A stretch of DNA of 64,000 bases from an uncultured Bacteroidales bacterium. GTDB taxonomy: Bacteria > Bacteroidota > Bacteroidia > Bacteroidales > B18-G4. The notes beneath the pieces are model-generated. The model did no database searches, was not told the origin of the DNA, and saw nothing but the letters and a program-made list of their open reading frames with translations. Below, piece after piece: positions 2,834-47,582 of the stretch; positions within the stretch are counted from its first letter, which is position 1; every line of letters starts with the position of its first letter. The stretch lies in NCBI GenBank assembly GCA_963753835.1, contig CAVWDP010000002.1, positions 611,578 to 675,577 of the forward strand, read 5' to 3'. Made by a program: the position numbers and the translations under genes.

Positions 2834-3510
<677 letters not shown>

Positions 3511-6504: not shown

Positions 6505-6990
6505 AATCCTGCCCCCGCTACAACAAAGTCCTGATGCATGCATCAGGACTTTTCTTTTTATGCTGAGCATTAAGCTTGCTTGAGTGCGAAAGCATGAAAA
6601 GAAAAGGTCTTTACGAGCGTAGCGAGTTAATCCGGGACTCTGTGAGGGAGAGACTTTGAGATTGGGGGATGGGGAGATAGGGTGAAGTGGGGAGCGAAGC
6701 ATTCAGTCTTATGGTCTTTATTATCCCCCCCATTCAGGATCATCCCGAGTACTCGGGATAACCTGGACAAATCCTAAGCTCTAAATACCCAAACTCGAAA
6801 CAAATTCAAAGGTTTCAAATCCAAAATACAAAACTTAAGTACGGCTTAATTTATCTAAGTGATTCTGCTCGTCGGGAGATGAGCAACCTGTACACACGCA
6901 TCAGAAGATGCTTGCGAGCGGAGGTAAAAAACACCCCCCCAAACATTTTATGGTAGAAATTTTTAATAAAAACACCGTTGTCGTCCCCCT
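6505..6990 (+). repeat. Direct repeat copy 2, beginning with a 16-nt tRNA-fMet 3' fragment
   Basis: aatcctgcccccgcta plus the terminator palindrome and downstream sequence, duplicated from 2890 onward. No upstream tRNA body is present. Confidence 0.9.
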
Positions 6991-8660: not shown

Positions 8661-9382
8661 ATGAAAAAATTATTTTATTTATTAGGATTGATTATATCCT
8701 TGGCAGTTGTGATTGCAGCTTGTGAGAAAACTACATTAGATGACAATACAGAATCATCTATGAAAGGTAACAATGGCTGTGCAAAGATTCAGAGCGGAGA
8801 CATTGTTTATAGTAGCTCACATTATTTAGCAGGAACAGCAATTACAACAGGATTTGATGATTATGGATACAATTATCAAGCACTTAAGTTCCAGGGCTCC
8901 TATTTTAATTCATATGCAGGAGGAAATGGATTGCCACCCTGGGATGGAAACGATGCCGCTTATCTAGCAGTTAATCCAAGTGCTGCAACTCATTGGGCTT
9001 GGCCATACAGAGATGTTAATCTCATGATGAAATGGAATACAGCATGGATTTCAAAAACTGATTGCGATGGGGATGGAGCCTTAGATCGTCACTGGGGTTT
9101 TGATAGTTATATAGGATCAGGAGCTTGGTTGACGAATCACCAGTCGGGTACTTATGAAGTTGATGGTGAGACTTGTAATTGGAATTACTTTGTGAAAATT
9201 ATCGCTGTTCCTGCTGATGCAACGTCATCAGAAGGATCTGGTATAATGCTGATGGTACCGAGATCGGCCCTGTGATTTGGGGCGAATTTGCTATAATTCA
9301 AGAAGTAGAGAATGATCCATGTGCTGGAATTCATGGATTACAATATGTAAGCCCAGATCACGCAGGTTTAGGCGGATGGTAA
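8661..9382 (+). pseudogene. Lipoprotein of unknown function, one frameshift near 9235
   Basis: Lipobox LAVVIAAC. After ...ATSSEG the reading continues in another frame as WYNADGTEIGPVIWGEFAIIQEVENDPCAGIHGLQYVSPDHAGLGGW, followed by a hairpin and T-run at 9406-9432. Confidence 0.6.
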
Positions 9383-9483: not shown

Positions 9484-11049
9484 TTAATTCCCTAGTTTCC
9501 TTTTCAGATCTACAGCTGTACTTGTAATAGCCAAGCCACCCTTGCCGGTACATTTAACGCATGATGGCATTTGGTCACTGACCCGTGAGACTGTTTGAAT
9601 AACCTCATCCAGTGGGATTACTGCATCGAAGCCCGAACATATCATGCTTGCAGACGTATACGCATTAACAGCGGCATTAACATTTTTTCCTAAACAAGGG
9701 ACTTCAACACGATCTGCTACCGGATCGCAAATCAATCCAATCATATTCTGAATAGCCATTGAAGAAGCATCTATGGCCTGCTTAGCCGTCCCGCCAAACA
9801 ATTGTACAATTGCCGCTGCAGCCATACCTGAGGCCGCACCACACTCCACCTGGCATCCATGTTCTTCCGCAGAAAATCCAGGTCCGGCAGCAAAATATAC
9901 ACCTACAATGCCGGCAGCAAAATAGGATTTTATCAACTCATCTTCACTTGACTTCAATTCTTCGGCAATTGCCTTTAGAACACCACCAACAGTTCCGCAG
10001 GAACCTGCCGTAGGATTAGCAACAAATACTTCCATGGCACTTTTAACTTCCATTATAGCAGTGACATATGAAATAATTCTGTTTAAAATTGAATTGTGAA
10101 GGATCCTATTATTTTTTTCAGCTTTTTTAATGAGGTGTGACTGATGATGCAAGATCCGATCCTCATATATAGTCCCCTCAATCCCCGTACTTATACTATT
10201 TTCAATAATTCTGATTATCTCTTTCATTTTATTGAGCAAGCTGGCTTCTGAGAGTCCGCTGAGGCACTTTTCATATATTAATCCAACATCGCCCAAACTA
10301 TAATTTTCTCTTTCAGCATATTTAAGAAGGGATTCTATTGTCGTAAAAGGCACTTCTGAATTATTACCTGATAATATCGGAAGAATCGGATTAACAATAA
10401 TTACTTCTTCAGTATTGGGCAATTTCCTTATTTGCTGTTTAATTTCACGTGGAATTTCTTTTGAGGACTTTATGTTTATCAGCATGCTGTATTTTCCAGA
10501 TATATGATTCACCACAGCATCTTTAGGAATGATTGATTTAATTCTATCAGGAATTAGCTCGGAAGTTTTAGTCAATACCAGCAATTCATGATAATCTCCC
10601 CGAATATCAACTTTAAAATCATTAAGCTGGTAAATGTTAAATGAACCACCTCCAAGAGAAACCGCGTAAACCAGTATATTATTCCCATTTATTCCAGATA
10701 AAGAAATACGAACCGTATTTACATGATGGGTCGGGTAGGAGCCTATTTTATAAATTATCGATAGATCCCTTTCTTCAACCAATTGCTTGGTATTCTTCAT
10801 ACGGAAGTCTGTTATTTCCAATCCTAACAATCCTCCGTTAATACCCATTACAGTTCCCTGTTCCATGTAGTTAGTGGCCCATGCCCCATCTTTATCAAAT
10901 TCGATAAGGGCTTTTTTAAGCGGTTCATTTAAAATATCCAGACAAATCCTGGCTATCCGCCATGTAGCTGCGGTATGAGAACTTGATTGACCACGCATTA
11001 CAGGCCCAATAATATCATTAAATATTGTTGGAAGCATTATTGCACTCAC
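9484..11049 (-). CDS. sdaA: Iron-sulfur L-serine ammonia-lyase (fused beta/alpha type)
   Basis: 521 aa. N-terminus has GPVMRGQSSSHT. The C-terminal half has HGCQVECGAASGMAAAA and LICDPVADRVEVPCLGKN, typical of serine dehydratase alpha domains. Confidence 0.75.
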   Translation of the reverse strand: MSAIMLPTIFNDIIGPVMRGQSSSHTAATWRIARICLDILNEPLKKALIEFDKDGAWATNYMEQGTVMGINGGLLGLEITDFRMKNTKQLVEERDLSIIYKIGSYPTHHVNTVRISLSGINGNNILVYAVSLGGGSFNIYQLNDFKVDIRGDYHELLVLTKTSELIPDRIKSIIPKDAVVNHISGKYSMLINIKSSKEIPREIKQQIRKLPNTEEVIIVNPILPILSGNNSEVPFTTIESLLKYAERENYSLGDVGLIYEKCLSGLSEASLLNKMKEIIRIIENSISTGIEGTIYEDRILHHQSHLIKKAEKNNRILHNSILNRIISYVTAIMEVKSAMEVFVANPTAGSCGTVGGVLKAIAEELKSSEDELIKSYFAAGIVGVYFAAGPGFSAEEHGCQVECGAASGMAAAAIVQLFGGTAKQAIDASSMAIQNMIGLICDPVADRVEVPCLGKNVNAAVNAYTSASMICSGFDAVIPLDEVIQTVSRVSDQMPSCVKCTGKGGLAITSTAVDLKRKLGN

Positions 11050-11144
11050 ATCTCAATTCGTTTGTAAAATGTTGGCTAAATTGAAAATCCCTTATTCGTT
11101 AAGTGAGATTTATTCAAAGATACGAAAGTTTGATAGGTCATTGA

Positions 11145-11188
11145 GCTGCAACTTCCGGCACGAAAGGGAACCTTCTTAGTCTTTTTTC
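11145..11188 (+). repeat. Second copy of the 45-nt terminator-like repeat
   Basis: gctgcaacttccggcacgaaagggaaccttcttagtctttttt, compared with 6359-6410. Confidence 0.6.
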
Positions 11189-11293
11189 ATTCCTTTAAGC
11201 GTATAGAAGTCATAATTCTCATCCTAAAGATATAAAGGACAATATTCTATTCAATGGAGTACAGCTTGGATGCAGGTAAATGGATTGATTTGA

Positions 11294-11746
11294 TTATTTT
11301 AGGAAATACTTTTCTTTAAAAGTCACCCCATGCTTTAGAAGGAGTTCTTTATATTCTTCACGGAAGGTTTTGATCATATGATGCCTCTCCTGGTTGCGGA
11401 TATATCCCACTAAAGCTGCTTTCTCTTTAATTGTATAGGTGAATGCACCATAACCAATAGTCCAACCAATGAACTCCGGGAATACTTCATTTTCTTTTAT
11501 CCATAAAGAAGATGAGACCTTAATATCTTTTACGAGTGAGGATAAAGAGACCATAGGGTGGATATGAGTAGCAATGTGGAGGTGGTTTTCGACACCATTG
11601 ATTTCATACGCGATACATTGATTGTGTTTTAAGACACCCCAGATGTATTTGTAGAGCAGATGGCGTTTTTGTGCATTGATCATAACTTTGTCCCTGTATT
11701 TAGTGGCGAAGACGATCTGGTAGATGATTTGGGTATATGTAGACAT
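11294..11746 (-). CDS. IS200/IS605-family Y1 (HUH) transposase-like protein, RAYT-type
   Basis: 150 aa. N-terminus YQIVFATKYR, HUH-like HLHIATH, and a candidate catalytic Tyr region GYGAFTY. It is a single gene with no tnpB. Confidence 0.75.
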   Translation of the reverse strand: MSTYTQIIYQIVFATKYRDKVMINAQKRHLLYKYIWGVLKHNQCIAYEINGVENHLHIATHIHPMVSLSSLVKDIKVSSSLWIKENEVFPEFIGWTIGYGAFTYTIKEKAALVGYIRNQERHHMIKTFREEYKELLLKHGVTFKEKYFLK

Positions 11747-11762
11747 GGGTATTGCTTTTGTT

Positions 11763-11963
11763 GAACCCCTTTGGGGTTCTTATTTCTACTATCATAACCA
11801 TGGGTCACCCCATGGTTACTCCACGGGTTACACCCGTAGTTATTATGGTTCAATCCCTGCGGGATTGATAGTCAATGAACCGCGGAGCGGTTCAACAGCA
11901 ATAACCGCAGGTGAAACCTGCGGTTATTACCATCAAGAGTCCTATCAACCCCAACGGGGTTGA
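11763..11963. repeat. Array of seven consecutive short hairpins (REP-like) immediately upstream of the RAYT-like gene
   Basis: GAACCCC-ttt-GGGGTTC (11763-79). TAACCATGGG-tcac-CCCATGGTTA (11795-818). ACGGGT-tac-ACCCGT (11823-37). CAATCCC-tgc-GGGATTG (11851-67). TGAACCGC-gga-GCGGTTCA (11876-94). ATAACCGCAGG-tgaaa-CCTGCGGTTAT (11901-27). TCAACCCC-aac-GGGGTTGA (11945-63). Confidence 0.85.
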
Positions 11964-12167
11964 ACAATTACGTGTATAATAATTAATACTGAAAATAGGA
12001 AAATGTCACACTTTGATGTGGACTTTTTTAGCAAACCACAAGCTGTGGGAATGATGATATACTATTGATTATTTATTATTAAAGATTGTTATTGAAGATT
12101 TGTGACATTAGAATGAATCGAATTTCTCCAATACTAATCGCCAATAATCACTAGGATATAATCAATC

Positions 12168-13457
12168 TTATTCAGCAATTGGGCTAAATTCTTCCTCAAT
12201 CAGTTTCACTAGCTTCTCACTGGTCGCCATATGACTGCCCATAAACTGCTTGTGTAATGCCTCCATGGGGATGATCTCTGACTGCCTAACGTACTCATAC
12301 AGGGCTGTGAGGATGGCATTACGCCCACCAAAATGCTCACGGAAATGGTGAACGATCACCTTTGCCTTGGTGTCAGGGAGCTCAAGGGTGCTGTCGATGA
12401 TCAACAAGGTTTCTTCAGTGGCCTTGTTAATCAGCTTATGGGCAAACTTAAGACCATCCTCAGAGGTAACAATGATCACATCGGGCCTGGGTGCACCAGT
12501 GTATAATATAGGCTCAGCTGATAGGATAAGATTGGCGGCAGAAAATCCCACACCCACTGTGACCGGATAACTTCCTTTCTTGGTGACCTCAAGGCCACAG
12601 CGCATCCCTGCTTTTACAAAGAGTGAGGCACCGGATTGTACGCCTTCCCCGGCTGTTCCGCTCAAAAATAAACGTACCGGCCTGACCAGCCTTGGAGTGA
12701 ATTCCTTTTCTATCTCCAGCTTCGGATCAAAAAGTGTGGGTGCGTTTTCTTTTTCATTTGTCTGATACACCTTTGGTTCATTGTCGGTATAAACCTTTAT
12801 CTCAATACCTGCTTCTTCGATCAGGGCCTTGAGCTTCATACCCGGATTGCTTTTAACACCGTAGGAAGTACAGATCTCCATCACCTCTACAAGGGAAAAC
12901 CCATCCCTGGAAAAGGCTTCTGCAAGCTGGTCGGAAATATCACCGATGCCTGTGATCCTGCTTACATAGCTGGCGCCAGCGGCTGTTACCAATCCGCAAA
13001 TATCATAACCCTTGTGAGCTGCACCACCCGGGAGGGTAGGGGTTTTGAAACCTTCAGGTGTAAACTCGCTGGGCTGACCTCCGGTCATGCCGTAAAGCAT
13101 ATTGTTATGCACTACAACAGTCATATTATAGCCATTATGTGCAGCATCCAACAAGTGTTGCATCCCGATGGTGGCACCACCATCTCCAATAAAAACAATG
13201 ACCTTTTTATCTGGATTATTGATGCCGGCAGATACACCTGATGCCAGGGCCACCGACCGTCCATGTAATCCATGCACGGTGTGTGTGTCAAAAGCCTTGT
13301 CGATGATTCCCAGACAACCGATATCAGTTACCAGGATAACATCCAGGAGGTCTTTCCCAAGTTTTTGGAGAGCTTTCTCTGTATTCTGGCTGATGGTGGT
13401 ATGTGTACAGCCTTTGCAAAAAGGCAGGGTGCCTGTATTGATAAATTTAGTTTCCAT
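12168..13457 (-). CDS. 2-oxoacid:ferredoxin oxidoreductase, beta (TPP-binding) subunit fused to a gamma domain
   Basis: 429 aa. The N-terminal half has the TPP motif GDGGATIGMQHL...NNMLYGMTGGQ. The C-terminal half is gamma-like (LSGTAGEGVQSGASLF...GSYPVTVGVG). Confidence 0.8.
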   Translation of the reverse strand: METKFINTGTLPFCKGCTHTTISQNTEKALQKLGKDLLDVILVTDIGCLGIIDKAFDTHTVHGLHGRSVALASGVSAGINNPDKKVIVFIGDGGATIGMQHLLDAAHNGYNMTVVVHNNMLYGMTGGQPSEFTPEGFKTPTLPGGAAHKGYDICGLVTAAGASYVSRITGIGDISDQLAEAFSRDGFSLVEVMEICTSYGVKSNPGMKLKALIEEAGIEIKVYTDNEPKVYQTNEKENAPTLFDPKLEIEKEFTPRLVRPVRLFLSGTAGEGVQSGASLFVKAGMRCGLEVTKKGSYPVTVGVGFSAANLILSAEPILYTGAPRPDVIIVTSEDGLKFAHKLINKATEETLLIIDSTLELPDTKAKVIVHHFREHFGGRNAILTALYEYVRQSEIIPMEALHKQFMGSHMATSEKLVKLIEEEFSPIAE

Positions 13458-14556
13458 GACGCTTCACCTCCTCTATGATTTCATCTGGGCTAATCATGCG
13501 CCCGATGGTATTAACATTATGGATATTCGCCGGGGGCCTGGCACCAAAAAGCAATTTGCTGTAAAGCCCGTGATGATTTTCTTCGGCAATGATCACCTTG
13601 TTGTATCCTGAAATAATATTTAAATAAATATCAGGGATTGGCAGCAGGGTTTTTGGGATGAGCAAAGAAACAGCCTTACCTTCTCCTTTTAACCTCAGTG
13701 CAGCTTCCCTGGCAGCATTAGCCGTGATTCCATAAGATACGAGCAATGTGTCTGCTGCATCTTCCTTAATCAGATCGTAATGCAAGTAAGTGTCCAGGTT
13801 ATTTTCGATCTTCTCATGTATCGCAATGGTATTTCCCAGGGCAGCTGGCGTAATCCCTTCAAGGATGCCATTCTCATTGTGCGTGGAAGCAGTATACCTT
13901 ACCTGGTGCTTGCTATTACTCACGGATAGGAAATCAGGAACCCCTTTTTCATTTCGCTTATATGGAATAAAAGTTTCATCTGCTGAGTAATGCTTTCTTT
14001 CAAGCGGTTTTATCTCTTTCAGGCTATCCAGATCGAAGCTGAATTGTGTCATTACTTCTTCTTTCGATGTGAGCAGGATCACCGGCGTGCGAAGGTTAAC
14101 AGCAGTTTTAAGTGCCTGCTCTGCCATTTCCCAGCAATCGGTTGCTTCTGAAGTGCTGATCACAGGAATGGAATATCCACCCGAGAGCATGCCGTCAAGC
14201 AAGGTAATGTCGCCCTGTGCACCGCTGGTGGCTGTTCCTGTGGCAGGTCCTAATCGTTGCACCAATATGATCACCATGGGCAGTTCCATCATGTATGCCA
14301 TATTGATGGATTCAAGCATGAGGGCAAAGCCCGGGAAGGAAGTTGCCGTGACCGGTAATTTGCCGGCTGTTGCAAAGCCGCTCATCCATTGTAGGGTGGT
14401 GATCTCATCAGGTGCAGCGAAAAAAGTTTTAAATCGTTTTCCCGAAAAGAGGTAGAGGTTGTTGGCCGGCGTAATGGGGTAGCCGATAAACACCTCTGCA
14501 CCTGCCCTCACAAGGGCTTCGGTTATCAATCTTGATCCGTCAATTAAAGCCTGCAT
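13447..14556 (-). CDS. 2-oxoacid:ferredoxin oxidoreductase, alpha subunit
   Basis: 369 aa. GYPITPAN motif near the N-terminus. Overlaps the downstream beta gene by 11 nt. Confidence 0.85.
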   Translation of the reverse strand: MQALIDGSRLITEALVRAGAEVFIGYPITPANNLYLFSGKRFKTFFAAPDEITTLQWMSGFATAGKLPVTATSFPGFALMLESINMAYMMELPMVIILVQRLGPATGTATSGAQGDITLLDGMLSGGYSIPVISTSEATDCWEMAEQALKTAVNLRTPVILLTSKEEVMTQFSFDLDSLKEIKPLERKHYSADETFIPYKRNEKGVPDFLSVSNSKHQVRYTASTHNENGILEGITPAALGNTIAIHEKIENNLDTYLHYDLIKEDAADTLLVSYGITANAAREAALRLKGEGKAVSLLIPKTLLPIPDIYLNIISGYNKVIIAEENHHGLYSKLLFGARPPANIHNVNTIGRMISPDEIIEEVKRHGN

Positions 14557-14585
14557 AAGCCTTTTTTTTGTGTTAATTAGATTTA

Positions 14586-14642
14586 AACCGATTCAATTTA
14601 TTTAACTGATATAACCAATTCAACTGATTTAACCGATTCAAC
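14586..14642 (+). repeat. Cluster of AACC(G/A)ATTCAA(C) words in the divergent promoter region
   Basis: aaccgattcaa (14586-96), aaccaattcaac (14613-24), aaccgattcaac (14631-42). The same 12-mer aaccaattcaac recurs at 47551-62. Confidence 0.6.
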
Positions 14643-14769
14643 AGTTAAAATGTGAAACATTTTAACAAAAGGCAAAGGTAGAAAAGAAGCGTTATACTAA
14701 AGGTATAAATTCCTAATTTTGAGCGAAAATAAATATTTATTTTTATTGTGAATTCAATAACAATATGTA

Positions 14770-47469: not shown

Positions 47470-47497
47470 AGTCACCCTTCGACTTCGCTCAGGATGA
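47470..47497 (+). repeat. Solo copy of the CTTCGACTTCGCTC(A/G)GGATGAC REP-like motif
   Basis: gtcacccttcgacttcgctcaggatgac, compared with 49701-27, 53437-60, the inverse of 53556-79, and the inverse of 35-60. Confidence 0.75.
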
Positions 47498-47501
47498 CAA
47501 T

Positions 47502-47562
47502 CGGTTGATTTAGTTGAACTGCTTAAATTAGTACCCTAGTTCAACAAGTTTAACCAATTCAA
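47502..47562. repeat. Imperfect inverted repeat GGTTGATTTAGTTGAAC / GTTCAACAAGTTTAACC plus an aaccaattcaac word
   Basis: Arms at 47502-18 and 47538-54 match at 13 of 17 positions as an inverted repeat. The 12-mer at 47551-62 is identical to 14613-24. Confidence 0.55.
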
Positions 47563-47582
47563 CAATTTCACCAACAAAGCTT

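What the first reader, a model, noticed from the sequence alone, without database searches (positions are those of the whole stretch)
11294..11963. RAYT-like Y1 transposase gene preceded by seven back-to-back AACC...GGTT hairpins
Within 200 bp directly upstream of the single-gene IS200/IS605-type (HUH) ORF there are seven consecutive stem-loops (coordinates are in the feature list). Five have stems that begin (A/T/G)AACC and end GGTT(A/T/C), with 3-5 nt loops. Canonical IS200/IS605 ends carry one subterminal hairpin per end, and REP/RAYT systems usually scatter REPs around the genome.

A dense array at the gene's 5' side could be a REPIN nursery, a recognition-site cluster, or a structured leader controlling the transposase. 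GTTCAAC/GTTGAAC words from these stems recur in the 14.6-kb and 47.5-kb intergenic word clusters.
Basis: seen in the sequence. Interest (0 to 1): 0.6.

Follow-up and report, generated by a model that had tools for sequence, protein, structure and literature searches.

The report
Y1 transposase with tri-hairpin end modules
The seven hairpins are two mirror-image copies of a conserved three-hairpin DNA module that brackets a little-studied IS200-like (HUH/Y1) transposase gene family throughout Bacteroidota, a family that the one paper describing it says generally lacks such flanking structures.

Summary
Seven perfect stem-loops lie at 11763-11963, about 130 times the window's background density, and the region folds with z about -9 on both strands.

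The ORF is an intact HUH/Y1 enzyme, but not a RAYT. By motifs and length it belongs to TnpA_Y1 'subclass 1.2' of Quentin et al. 2018. That paper lists this subclass as having no REPs and generally no terminal hairpins.

The hairpins are not an arbitrary array. They are two copies, tail to tail, of one roughly 115-nt module: AAnCC hairpin, invariant TA(A/G)C tag, variable hairpin, A-rich spacer, AACC hairpin. The gene-proximal copy has one duplicated middle hairpin.

In 80 homologous loci a module abuts the start codon in 66 and, inverted, the stop codon in 60. All three helices covary, almost without G-U pairs. Loops are 72% GNA on one strand, which points to single-stranded DNA.

An unbiased metagenome scan found gene-less copies: solos, '><' and '<>' doublets.

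Best reading: these are the enzyme's cognate ssDNA sites, a REPtron/IS200-like system. The window copy lacks a right end. One genome has seven copies with outer inverted repeats and 8-bp target duplications, which remains unexplained.

The parts
11294..11746 (-). Y1 (HUH) transposase-like gene, 150 aa, TnpA_Y1 subclass 1.2 type. HUH = H55-L-H57; catalytic Y115 with Q119; H122-H123.
   Evidence: Pfam Y1_Tnp 3.5e-19. NCBIfam IS200 52.1 bits (cut-off 55) and REP_Tyr_transpos 16.2 bits (cut-off 80). Invariant residues. IS608 TnpA 2a6m, E = 5.7e-4. pN 0.108 against pS 0.75 versus L001.
11753..11887 (-). Gene-proximal end module (the 'left end', '>' in the gene frame). It reads H3'-H2'-H2''-H1' on the gene-sense strand and ends 7 nt before the ATG by the model match; the last hairpin ends 17 nt before it.
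   Evidence: Covariance model R1: 80.4 bits, E = 1e-16, full length 1-115, with a 21-nt insertion that is the extra hairpin.
11857..11972 (+). Distal end module in the opposite orientation ('<' in the gene frame), tail to tail with the proximal module. It reads H3'-H2'-H1' on the + strand.
   Evidence: R1: 80.1 bits, E = 1.2e-16, full length. The homologous module is in L001 at 2646-2760.
11763..11779 (-). H1' of the proximal module: GAACCCC-AAA-GGGGTTC (gene-sense strand), followed by a conserved AA.
11795..11818 (-). Extra B-type hairpin (H2''), a duplicate of the [TAAC + variable hairpin] unit. It corresponds to the H2' of L001.
11821..11839 (-). H2' of the proximal module: CTACGGGT-GTA-ACCCGTGG on the gene-sense strand (8 pairs including one G.T; 6 perfect pairs at 11823-11837), preceded by the invariant TAAC tag.
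11850..11868 (-). H3' of the proximal module: TCAATCCC-GCA-GGGATTGA, followed by AAC.
11876..11894 (+). H3' of the distal module: TGAACCGC-GGA-GCGGTTCA.
11900..11928 (+). H2' of the distal module: AATAACCGCAGGT-GAA-ACCTGCGGTTATT. The TAAC tag is drawn into the stem. The loop-closing pair changed on both sides relative to L001 (T-A to A-T).
11945..11963 (+). H1' of the distal module: TCAACCCC-AAC-GGGGTTGA, followed by AC (GTTGAAC).
11973..12167 (-). AT-rich 195-nt segment between the stop codon of the upstream oxidoreductase gene and the distal module. It is conserved with L001 although the neighbouring genes differ, so it probably travels with the unit. Its role is unknown and it is not a remnant of the Y1 gene.

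Best explanation
The locus is a REPtron/IS200-like unit of the TnpA_Y1 'subclass 1.2' family.

What the module is: the hairpins are the family's own composite end module, about 115 nt long. It has an outer AAnCC-loop-GGnTT hairpin (H3), a conserved linker ending in an invariant TA(A/G)C tetranucleotide at the 5' foot of a variable-sequence hairpin (H2), an A-rich spacer of about 25 nt, and an inner nAACCnn-loop-nnGGTTn hairpin (H1) that abuts the gene.

How it is normally arranged: canonically one module precedes the start codon and an inverted one follows the stop codon.

How it most likely works (inferred): the modules are the single-stranded-DNA recognition and cleavage sites of the encoded HUH/Y1 enzyme. 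The hairpins extrude on the strand that carries the stable GNA triloops. The enzyme binds them as IS608 TnpA and E. coli TnpA_REP bind their hairpins, and it cuts and rejoins nearby. Through this the gene unit and gene-less copies (solo modules, '><' and '<>' doublets) are duplicated and spread.

The window copy: it has the left-end module plus a second, inverted module, and no right-end module. The '<>' arrangement is what a right-end/left-end junction of a tandem or circular form would look like. The gene itself is therefore probably no longer mobile as a unit. It is still under strong purifying selection and could act in trans.

Shown: module identity, conservation, covariation, association with the gene, and gene-less copies. 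Inferred: binding and cleavage by the enzyme, and the ssDNA form.
For: - Catalytic equipment is intact and conserved. pN is 0.108 against a saturated pS of 0.75 versus the 81%-identical L001.
- Hairpin density peaks only in the roughly 200 nt on each side of the gene in 80 homologous loci: 1.6 per 100 nt against about 0.1 background.
- A model built from 43 modules finds exactly two full-length modules in the window, both at 80 bits, and nothing else credible in 64 kb.
- The model finds 276 modules in the 80 loci. A '>' abuts the start in 66, a '<' abuts the stop in 60, and both occur in 53.
- On a MAFFT alignment that was not fitted to structure, 94% of cells pair and 15 of 17 pairs have compensatory changes. 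The covariation score is 0.575 against 0.18 in shuffles (0 of 500 reach it) and 0.09 or less with slid partners. One-sided (G-U type) changes are few, a handful per pair at most, against 160 double changes.
- 357 of 496 triloops are GNA on the model strand and 20 are TNC. Closing pairs are C-G or T-A. From my own knowledge, d(C-GNA-G) minihairpins are exceptionally stable in DNA.
- The window and L001 share the whole unit, although the flanking genes are unrelated. Other pairs share roughly 650-700-bp units bounded near the H3 hairpins, with unrelated flanks.
- In a scan keyed on the hairpin alone, 25 of 44 decidable hits have no Y1 gene within 1.5 kb. Fifteen loci carry gene-less '><' doublets.
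- Two solo modules 4.2 kb apart on one contig are identical but for one base over the ~110-nt module plus its 3' tail, with sharp ends.
Against: - There is no biochemical evidence. No cleavage site could be mapped, because no empty-site/filled-site pair was available.
- The inverted arrangement of the ends differs from IS608/ISDra2, where both recognised hairpins lie on the same strand in the same orientation. The classical single-strand 'peel and paste' scheme therefore cannot simply be transferred.
- Most genomes appear to carry only one or two gene copies (Quentin et al. 2018). In the 80 loci only 14 of 276 modules lie more than 1 kb from the gene.
- No other module occurs in this 64-kb window.
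- The only clearly multi-copy case has outer terminal inverted repeats and 8-bp target duplications. This suggests mobilisation by a different (DDE-type) enzyme.
Confidence: 0.62

Rival explanations
1. Structured RNA leader or insulator. The hairpins act in the transcript, or as terminators, to block read-through from the upstream oxidoreductase gene and to throttle translation of the transposase. From my own knowledge, this is what the left-end hairpins of Salmonella IS200 do.
For: - The innermost hairpin ends 17 nt before the ATG.
- The array lies between a co-oriented upstream gene and the Y1 gene.
- Terminator-like matches are enriched in 10900-12400: 5 found against 0.9 expected. However, the two that lie in the array are on the + strand, antisense to the gene.
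Against: - The same module occurs inverted directly after the stop codon in 60 of 80 loci, and in gene-less solos and doublets.
- Compensatory changes almost never pass through G-U.
- Loops are GNA on the sense strand upstream but on the antisense strand downstream.
- On the gene strand no hairpin is followed by a T-run.
- No Rfam family matches.
- A secondary regulatory role is not excluded.
Confidence: 0.15
2. The modules are terminal inverted repeats of a MITE-like element moved by an unrelated DDE transposase, and the Y1 gene is only a passenger.
For: In the complete MAG OY760906.1, seven copies of a roughly 743-bp unit end in a 24-nt outer inverted repeat (GGATCAATTCATAAAGWTGTGG...). Six of the seven have perfect 8-bp direct duplications of different sequence. 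The joint TIR + TSD test scores 5 of 43 units against 0 of 1255 controls, and all five are from that genome. One gene-less doublet (L113) has a roughly 30-nt outer inverted repeat and a 12-bp duplication.
Against: - The TIR/TSD signature is absent from the other units tested and from the window.
- In OY760906.1 it lies 33-41 nt outside the hairpin modules. It therefore looks like an added outer layer rather than the module itself.
- Hairpin triplets that covary and carry strand-specific loops are not a feature of DDE ends.
- The tight gene-module association across roughly 80 genomes is unexpected for a passenger.
Confidence: 0.12
3. A classical RAYT (TnpA_REP, class 2) with its REP/BIME cluster.
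For: Hairpins flank the gene in inverted orientation, and arrays of alternating orientation occur in some relatives (L013, L047). This resembles REPtrons and BIMEs.
Against: - REP_Tyr_transpos scores 16 bits against a cut-off of 80.
- The Tyr motif is YxxxQ..HH, not YxxxNP.
- There is no GTAG/GTGG tag at the hairpin foot; the tag is TA(A/G)C.
- The repeat unit is a three-hairpin composite, not a single 20-40-nt palindrome.
Confidence: 0.04

Closest known systems
TnpA_Y1 subclass 1.2 (Quentin, Siguier, Chandler and Fichant 2018, BMC Genomics 19:475; PMC6006769)
   Same: - Median length 148 aa (150 here)
- Y-x3-Q-x2-HH signature (YIRNQERHH here; YIKNQKEHH in the paper)
- DH[IV]H-type HuH (NHLH here; D/N-H-[LI]-H in relatives)
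- WQ motif in relatives
- Conserved C-terminal tail
- Bacteroidetes hosts
- Low copy number

   Different: [quoted passage not shown] Here a conserved three-hairpin module flanks the gene in 66 of 80 (5' side) and 60 of 80 (3' side) loci, gene-less copies exist, and one genome has seven near-identical copies.
IS200/IS605 family elements (IS200, IS608, ISDra2; TnpA_IS200, subclass 1.1)
   Same: - Single small HUH/Y1 gene
- Unit size about 650-740 bp
- Hairpins at both ends
- YxxxQ catalytic motif
- Nearest solved structure is IS608 TnpA

   Different: - The NCBIfam IS200 equivalog score falls just below its cut-off (52.1 against 55).
- Each end carries three hairpins instead of one.
- The two ends are inverted repeats of each other, about 65-75% identical over 70-130 nt, instead of like-oriented hairpins on one strand.
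- The family is mostly single-copy.
REPtrons: RAYT/TnpA_REP genes flanked by REP/BIME sequences (Nunvar 2010; Ton-Hoang 2012; Bertels and Rainey 2011)
   Same: - Y1 gene bracketed by inverted palindromic repeats
- Alternating-orientation arrays next to the gene
- A conserved tetranucleotide at the 5' foot of a hairpin
- Gene-less doublets elsewhere
- Low gene copy number
(background)
   Different: - The protein is class 1, not class 2.
- The tag is TA(A/G)C, not GTAG.
- The repeat unit is a roughly 115-nt three-hairpin composite.
- No genome-wide high-copy dispersal has been shown.
TIRtrons/TIRYT (Di Nocera et al. 2013, PMC3733652)
   Same: Y1 genes flanked by terminal inverted repeats. Some of those repeats are self-complementary and occur as dimers or clusters elsewhere in the genome.
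   Different: TIRYT proteins belong mostly to class 2.1, are longer and carry HTH tails. Their repeats share a GGGGWSAS motif. None of this applies here.

Membership tests
Y1_Tnp / HUH single-tyrosine transposase superfamily | Pfam PF01797 match above the gathering score | tested here: met
   69.6 bits against a cut-off of 23, E = 3.5e-19, residues 4-119
Y1_Tnp / HUH single-tyrosine transposase superfamily | HUH metal-binding motif and catalytic Tyr with a downstream Gln | tested here: met
   H55-L-H57, Y115 and Q119 are invariant in 18 homologues. The HLH aligns with the HIH of IS608 TnpA 2a6m.
TnpA_Y1 subclass 1.2 (Quentin et al. 2018) | Y-x3-Q-x2-HH signature, about 148 aa, short core plus a conserved C-terminal tail | tested here: met
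   Y115-IRN-Q119-ER-H122-H123; 150 aa; relatives are 148 aa with a conserved tail at 120-148 (definition). I did not have the authors' HMM, so membership rests on the published motifs.
TnpA_Y1 subclass 1.2 (Quentin et al. 2018) | Hosts restricted mainly to Bacteroidetes and Cyanobacteria; low copy number | tested here: met
   The 80 best genome loci are almost all Bacteroidota MAGs or isolates. P0014 occupies the same single locus in every sample read. The exception is OY760906.1 with at least 8 copies.
TnpA_Y1 subclass 1.2 (Quentin et al. 2018) | Reported absence of REP-like or terminal secondary structures | tested here: not met
   Modules flank 66 of 80 (5') and 60 of 80 (3') loci. This is a descriptive statement in the paper, not a criterion, so it revises the description rather than excluding membership.
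IS200/IS605 family (TnpA_IS200 equivalog) | NCBIfam NF033573 equivalog score at or above the cut-off | tested here: not met
   52.1 bits against a cut-off of 55
IS200/IS605 family (TnpA_IS200 equivalog) | One subterminal hairpin per end, like-oriented on the same strand; no terminal inverted repeats; no target duplication | tested here: not met
   Each end has three hairpins, and the ends are inverted repeats. No target duplication was seen in most lineages, but an 8-bp duplication occurs in OY760906.1.
IS200/IS605 family (TnpA_IS200 equivalog) | Transposition through a circular ssDNA intermediate with insertion 3' of a specific tetra- or pentanucleotide | not testable with these tools
   No empty-site/filled-site pairs were available, and this needs experiment.
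RAYT / TnpA_REP (class 2) | NCBIfam NF047646 score at or above the cut-off; Y-x3-NP motif | tested here: not met
   16.2 bits against a cut-off of 80. The motif is YIRNQ, not Y...NP.
RAYT / TnpA_REP (class 2) | Flanking REPs with a 5' GTAG/GTGG tetranucleotide, present in many copies genome-wide | tested here: not met
   The tag at the hairpin foot is TA(A/G)C (invariant T34, A35, C37). Genome-wide copy number is not testable for this genome, and there are no further copies in 64 kb.
MITE/DDE-type element | Terminal inverted repeats plus fixed-length target-site duplications | tested here: inconclusive
   Met only by the OY760906.1 copies (5 of 43 units; 0 of 1255 controls). Not met for the window copy, which has no right end.

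The most novel reading that the evidence does not exclude
The 8-bp target-site duplications and terminal inverted repeats seen on six of seven copies in OY760906.1 are produced by the subclass 1.2 Y1 enzyme itself. That would make this a strand-symmetric HUH/Y1 transposon whose two inverted tri-hairpin ends are each processed on the strand carrying the GNA loops, and which inserts across a staggered double-strand target cut. No such mode is known for any prokaryotic Y1 element.
Probability: 0.1. Interest if true: 0.85.

Novelty: new variant of a known kind. Interest (0 to 1): 0.55.

Why it matters
Subclass 1.2 is the closest relative of the IS200 transposases. It is currently described as a Y1 enzyme without a DNA partner and without IS properties. 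A conserved, covarying, strand-asymmetric three-hairpin module at both ends of the gene, plus gene-less copies, gives the family a candidate substrate. That makes its biochemistry directly testable with three short oligonucleotides per strand.

The inverted arrangement of the ends sits between the IS200/IS605 design (like-oriented hairpins) and the REP/RAYT design (inverted REPs). It therefore bears on how Y1 transposases became domesticated.

Practically, the model built here can annotate a repeat family in Bacteroidota that is not in Rfam. I also found no description of it in the literature library I could search.

Tried and rejected
- **Rfam.** Neither the gathering nor the permissive threshold gave a credible family.
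- **Exact-protein look-up.** The window protein is not on record.
- **AT-rich 195 nt upstream as a decayed Y1 gene.** tblastn and three-frame translation show nothing. The segment matches only L001.
- **Right-end module downstream of the window gene (11050-11293).** There is no model hit and no inverted repeat.
- **14.6-kb and 47.5-kb word clusters as related repeats.** Rejected.
- **P0014 (seen on 51 contigs) as a second multi-copy case.** It is one locus seen in many samples.
- **Target-site duplications as a family-wide feature.**
  - The longest direct repeat across unit ends is enriched (8 nt or more in 33% of units against 13% of controls). The excess is explained by tandem arrays, long flank duplications and the OY760906.1 copies.
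  - The strict TIR + 8-bp TSD test picks out only OY760906.1.
- **The ~2-kb insertion in L010 as the missing DDE partner.** It is a group II intron reverse transcriptase.
- **Nezha/ISNpu3 MITEs of cyanobacteria as a lead.** The text I read did not give the transposase family.
- **Two '><' doublets on one contig (L105).** They are too diverged to define ends.
- **The 79-aa + strand ORF 11724-11963.** It is made of the hairpin arms and was not pursued as a gene.
Full report
**1. The observation**

Reading 10800-12500 and an inverted-repeat scan confirm seven perfect stem-loops between 11763 and 11963. They lie directly upstream of a minus-strand ORF at 11294-11746. Stems are 6-13 bp and loops 3-4 nt.

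- Of the 21 distinct perfect hairpins in the window with a stem of at least 7 bp and at least 4 G/C, six lie in these 200 bp. The other 15 are spread over 63.8 kb.
- Of the seven AA[CT]C...G[AG]TT hairpins in the window, six are here. About 4.8 are expected in the whole window by chance.
- As single-stranded DNA, the region folds into all seven hairpins on either strand. Energies are -61.6 and -60.4 kcal/mol, with z-scores of -9.7 and -8.6.

**2. The gene**

The 150-aa product matches Pfam Y1_Tnp at 3.5e-19.

- It scores just below NCBI's IS200 equivalog cut-off (52.1 against 55). It scores far below the RAYT model (16.2 against 80).
- A database search gave 1412 relatives. Nearly all are 148 aa, and where a source names the organism it is Bacteroidota.
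- In an alignment of 18 relatives, H55, H57, Y115, Q119, H122 and H123 are invariant.
- The nearest solved structure is IS608 TnpA. Its HIH aligns with the HLH here.
- Against its closest genomic relative (L001, 81% amino-acid identity), synonymous sites are saturated (pS 0.75). Non-synonymous divergence is 0.108. The gene is therefore under strong purifying selection.
- Length, the Y-x3-Q-x2-HH signature, the HuH/W motifs of relatives and the host range match 'subclass 1.2' of the TnpA_Y1 classification of Quentin et al. 2018. That paper lists the subclass as 'REP: no'. [quoted passage not shown]

**3. The hairpins are a family feature with a fixed grammar**

I fetched 80 genomic loci encoding relatives. 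Perfect GC-containing hairpins are concentrated in the roughly 200 nt before the start codon and the roughly 200 nt after the stop codon. Density there is up to 1.6 per 100 nt, against about 0.1 further away.

Listing the hairpins showed a repeated order.

- Upstream: [AAnCCC-GAA-GGGnTT] GAAy..AATAAC [CCnnnnnT-GnA-AnnnnnGG] A-rich spacer [nAACCCC-GAA-GGGGTTn] AAT, then the gene.
- Downstream: the reverse complement of the same series.

BLAST of upstream against downstream flanks finds imperfect inverted repeats, mostly 70-130 nt long, in most loci.

A MAFFT alignment of 43 such modules has these features:

- an invariant T-A-(A/G)-C at the 5' foot of the middle hairpin;
- nearly invariant AACC/GGTT in the inner hairpin;
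- conserved A residues after the outer and inner hairpins.

RNAalifold recovers three helices with 17 pairs, and 15 of the pairs have compensatory changes. On the same alignment, which was not fitted to structure:

- 94% of cells pair;
- the covariation score is 0.575, against 0.18 in shuffles (0 of 500 reach it) and 0.09 or less when partners are slid;
- one-sided (G-U type) changes are few, a handful per pair at most, against 160 two-sided changes.

**4. What the seven hairpins are**

A covariance model of the module (R1) finds exactly two full-length matches in the window, both near 80 bits. One is at 11753-11887 on the gene strand and abuts the start codon. The other is at 11857-11972 on the opposite strand. 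Nothing else credible appears in 64 kb.

The proximal copy contains a 21-nt insertion. This is a second copy of the [TAAC + variable hairpin] unit. So 7 = 3 + 3 + 1.

The two modules lie tail to tail, with their outer hairpins 7 nt apart. There is no module or inverted repeat downstream of the gene.

**5. The family architecture**

R1 finds 276 modules in the 80 loci.

- A '>' module abuts the start codon in 66 loci.
- A '<' module abuts the stop codon in 60 loci.
- Both occur in 53 loci.

Extra modules form doublets and alternating or tandem arrays, for example in L013, L031 and L047. The window's '<>[gene]' form, without a right end, recurs in L001, L012, L023, L025, L041 and L078. It is scattered over the protein tree, so it arose repeatedly.

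**6. DNA rather than RNA**

On the model strand, 357 of 496 triloops are GNA (GAA alone is 51%) and only 20 are TNC. Closing pairs are C-G or T-A. From my own knowledge, d(C-GNA-G) minihairpins are exceptionally stable in DNA.

The model strand is the sense strand upstream and the antisense strand downstream. Each strand of a canonical unit therefore starts with a GNA-type module.

This evidence argues for a single-stranded-DNA role rather than an mRNA leader:

- G-U pairs are scarce;
- the inverted downstream copies exist;
- gene-less copies exist.

No Rfam family matches. The terminator-like matches in the array are on the antisense strand.

**7. Mobility and dispersal**

*Shared units in unrelated contexts.* The window and L001 share about 420-530 bp upstream of the gene: the AT-rich segment, both modules, and in L001 an extra tandem copy. 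The neighbouring genes on both sides are unrelated. Other pairs from different organisms share units of about 650-700 bp whose homology ends near the outer hairpins.

*Gene-less copies.* I scanned metagenome contigs with a pattern for the inner hairpin only. This avoids bias towards the gene.

- It returned 80 loci, in which R1 finds 141 modules.
- Of 44 pattern hits with enough flanking sequence to decide, 25 have no family gene within 1.5 kb.
- Fifteen loci carry gene-less '><' doublets of about 235 bp, which are left plus right end with the gene missing. At least six carry '<>' doublets. Many carry solos.
- On one contig, two solo modules 4.2 kb apart are identical but for one base over the ~110-nt module plus its 3' tail, and their ends are sharp.

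*Limits.* In the 80 gene-centred loci only 14 of 276 modules lie more than 1 kb from the gene. The window has none elsewhere. Dispersal is therefore real but, as far as I can see, modest.

**8. An unexplained special case**

The complete MAG OY760906.1 holds at least eight gene copies. Seven were compared.

- They share a sharply bounded unit of about 743 bp at around 99% identity.
- Beyond the hairpin modules, the unit ends in a 24-nt outer terminal inverted repeat.
- Six of the seven are flanked by perfect 8-bp direct duplications of unrelated sequence.
- Two copies have truncated ORFs. One is interrupted by a group II intron.

Terminal inverted repeats plus target duplications are not expected of IS200/IS605 elements. 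A strict joint test finds this signature only in this genome: 5 of 43 units, against 0 of 1255 mismatched controls. One gene-less doublet (L113) does show a 12-bp duplication with a roughly 30-nt outer inverted repeat.

The simplest reading is that the unit was boxed in by DDE-type ends there and amplified by another transposase. This would also explain why that genome is the multi-copy exception.

**9. Comparison and verdict**

The system works like a REPtron or an IS200-type element. It has a small HUH/Y1 enzyme bracketed by hairpins that carry a conserved tetranucleotide at a hairpin foot, and gene-less copies exist elsewhere.

- It is not a RAYT. The model score, the Y motif and the tag were all tested and not met.
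- It is not a canonical IS200/IS605 element. It scores just below the equivalog cut-off, has three hairpins per end, and its ends are inverted.
- By published motifs the protein belongs to subclass 1.2.

The flanking tri-hairpin module contradicts the published description of that subclass. I found no later description in the searchable library. I therefore rate it a new variant of a known kind. The structural and comparative claims carry high confidence. The claim that the modules are the enzyme's ssDNA substrates carries moderate confidence (about 0.6).

Noticed in passing
window 2834-3504 and 6505-6988: A direct repeat of roughly 480-615 nt, in three blocks 100%, 100% and 90% identical. Its first copy begins 16 nt inside the 3' end of tRNA-Met (2834-2906). 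It looks like the attL/attR pair of a roughly 3.6-kb integrated element. A 28-nt perfect palindrome, AAAGTCCTGATGCATGCATCAGGACTTT, sits in both copies.
   Followed up: partly
window 14565-14673 and about 47490-47570: Intergenic clusters of the word TTTAACC(G/A)ATTCAAC and near variants. They are not hairpins and not Y1 modules (R1 17.9 bits, E = 0.049). They may be repeated protein-binding sites; the first cluster lies just upstream of the oxidoreductase gene that starts at 14556.
   Followed up: partly
window 11973-12167: The AT-rich 195 nt between the upstream gene's stop codon and the distal module is 77-86% identical to L001 2476-2661, although the neighbouring genes are unrelated. In both loci the homology starts right at the stop codon of the upstream gene. 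It is not a remnant of the Y1 gene.
   Followed up: partly
L004, L005, L009, L010, L016, L021, L028 (OY760906.1): Seven near-identical copies of a roughly 743-bp Y1 unit with a 24-nt outer terminal inverted repeat. Six of the seven have perfect 8-bp target-site duplications. This is unexpected for a Y1 element.
   Followed up: partly
L010 871-2845: A group II intron reverse transcriptase gene (470 aa, YADD motif) is inserted in the left end module of one Y1 unit. The unit's 8-bp duplication (GCATTAAC) is still intact around the enlarged element.
   Followed up: no
L006, L036, L152, L113, L011/L014: Long direct repeats of 11-19 nt exact (longer if mismatches are allowed) flank some gene units and gene-less doublets, 15-60 nt outside the outer hairpins. 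In L011/L014, L036 and L043 they contain the same word, ATTTACGA. They could be long target duplications, partial tandem copies or a preferred target; this is not resolved.
   Followed up: partly
window 8686-8700 and 12152-12166: A 15-nt perfect inverted match, GATTGATTATATCCT, lies between the left edge of the AT-rich segment and a site 3.5 kb away, beyond the serine-dehydratase-like gene. E = 0.19, so it is probably chance.
   Followed up: no
L023 vs L025 (two Pedobacter species): In the gene-overlapping alignment, the genes are 84.5% identical at the DNA level and homology stops within 7 nt of the start codon and 3 nt of the stop codon. A separate comparison of the upstream module regions still shows a roughly 128-nt stretch at 90.6% identity. 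Conservation of the flanks is therefore patchy rather than absent.
   Followed up: no
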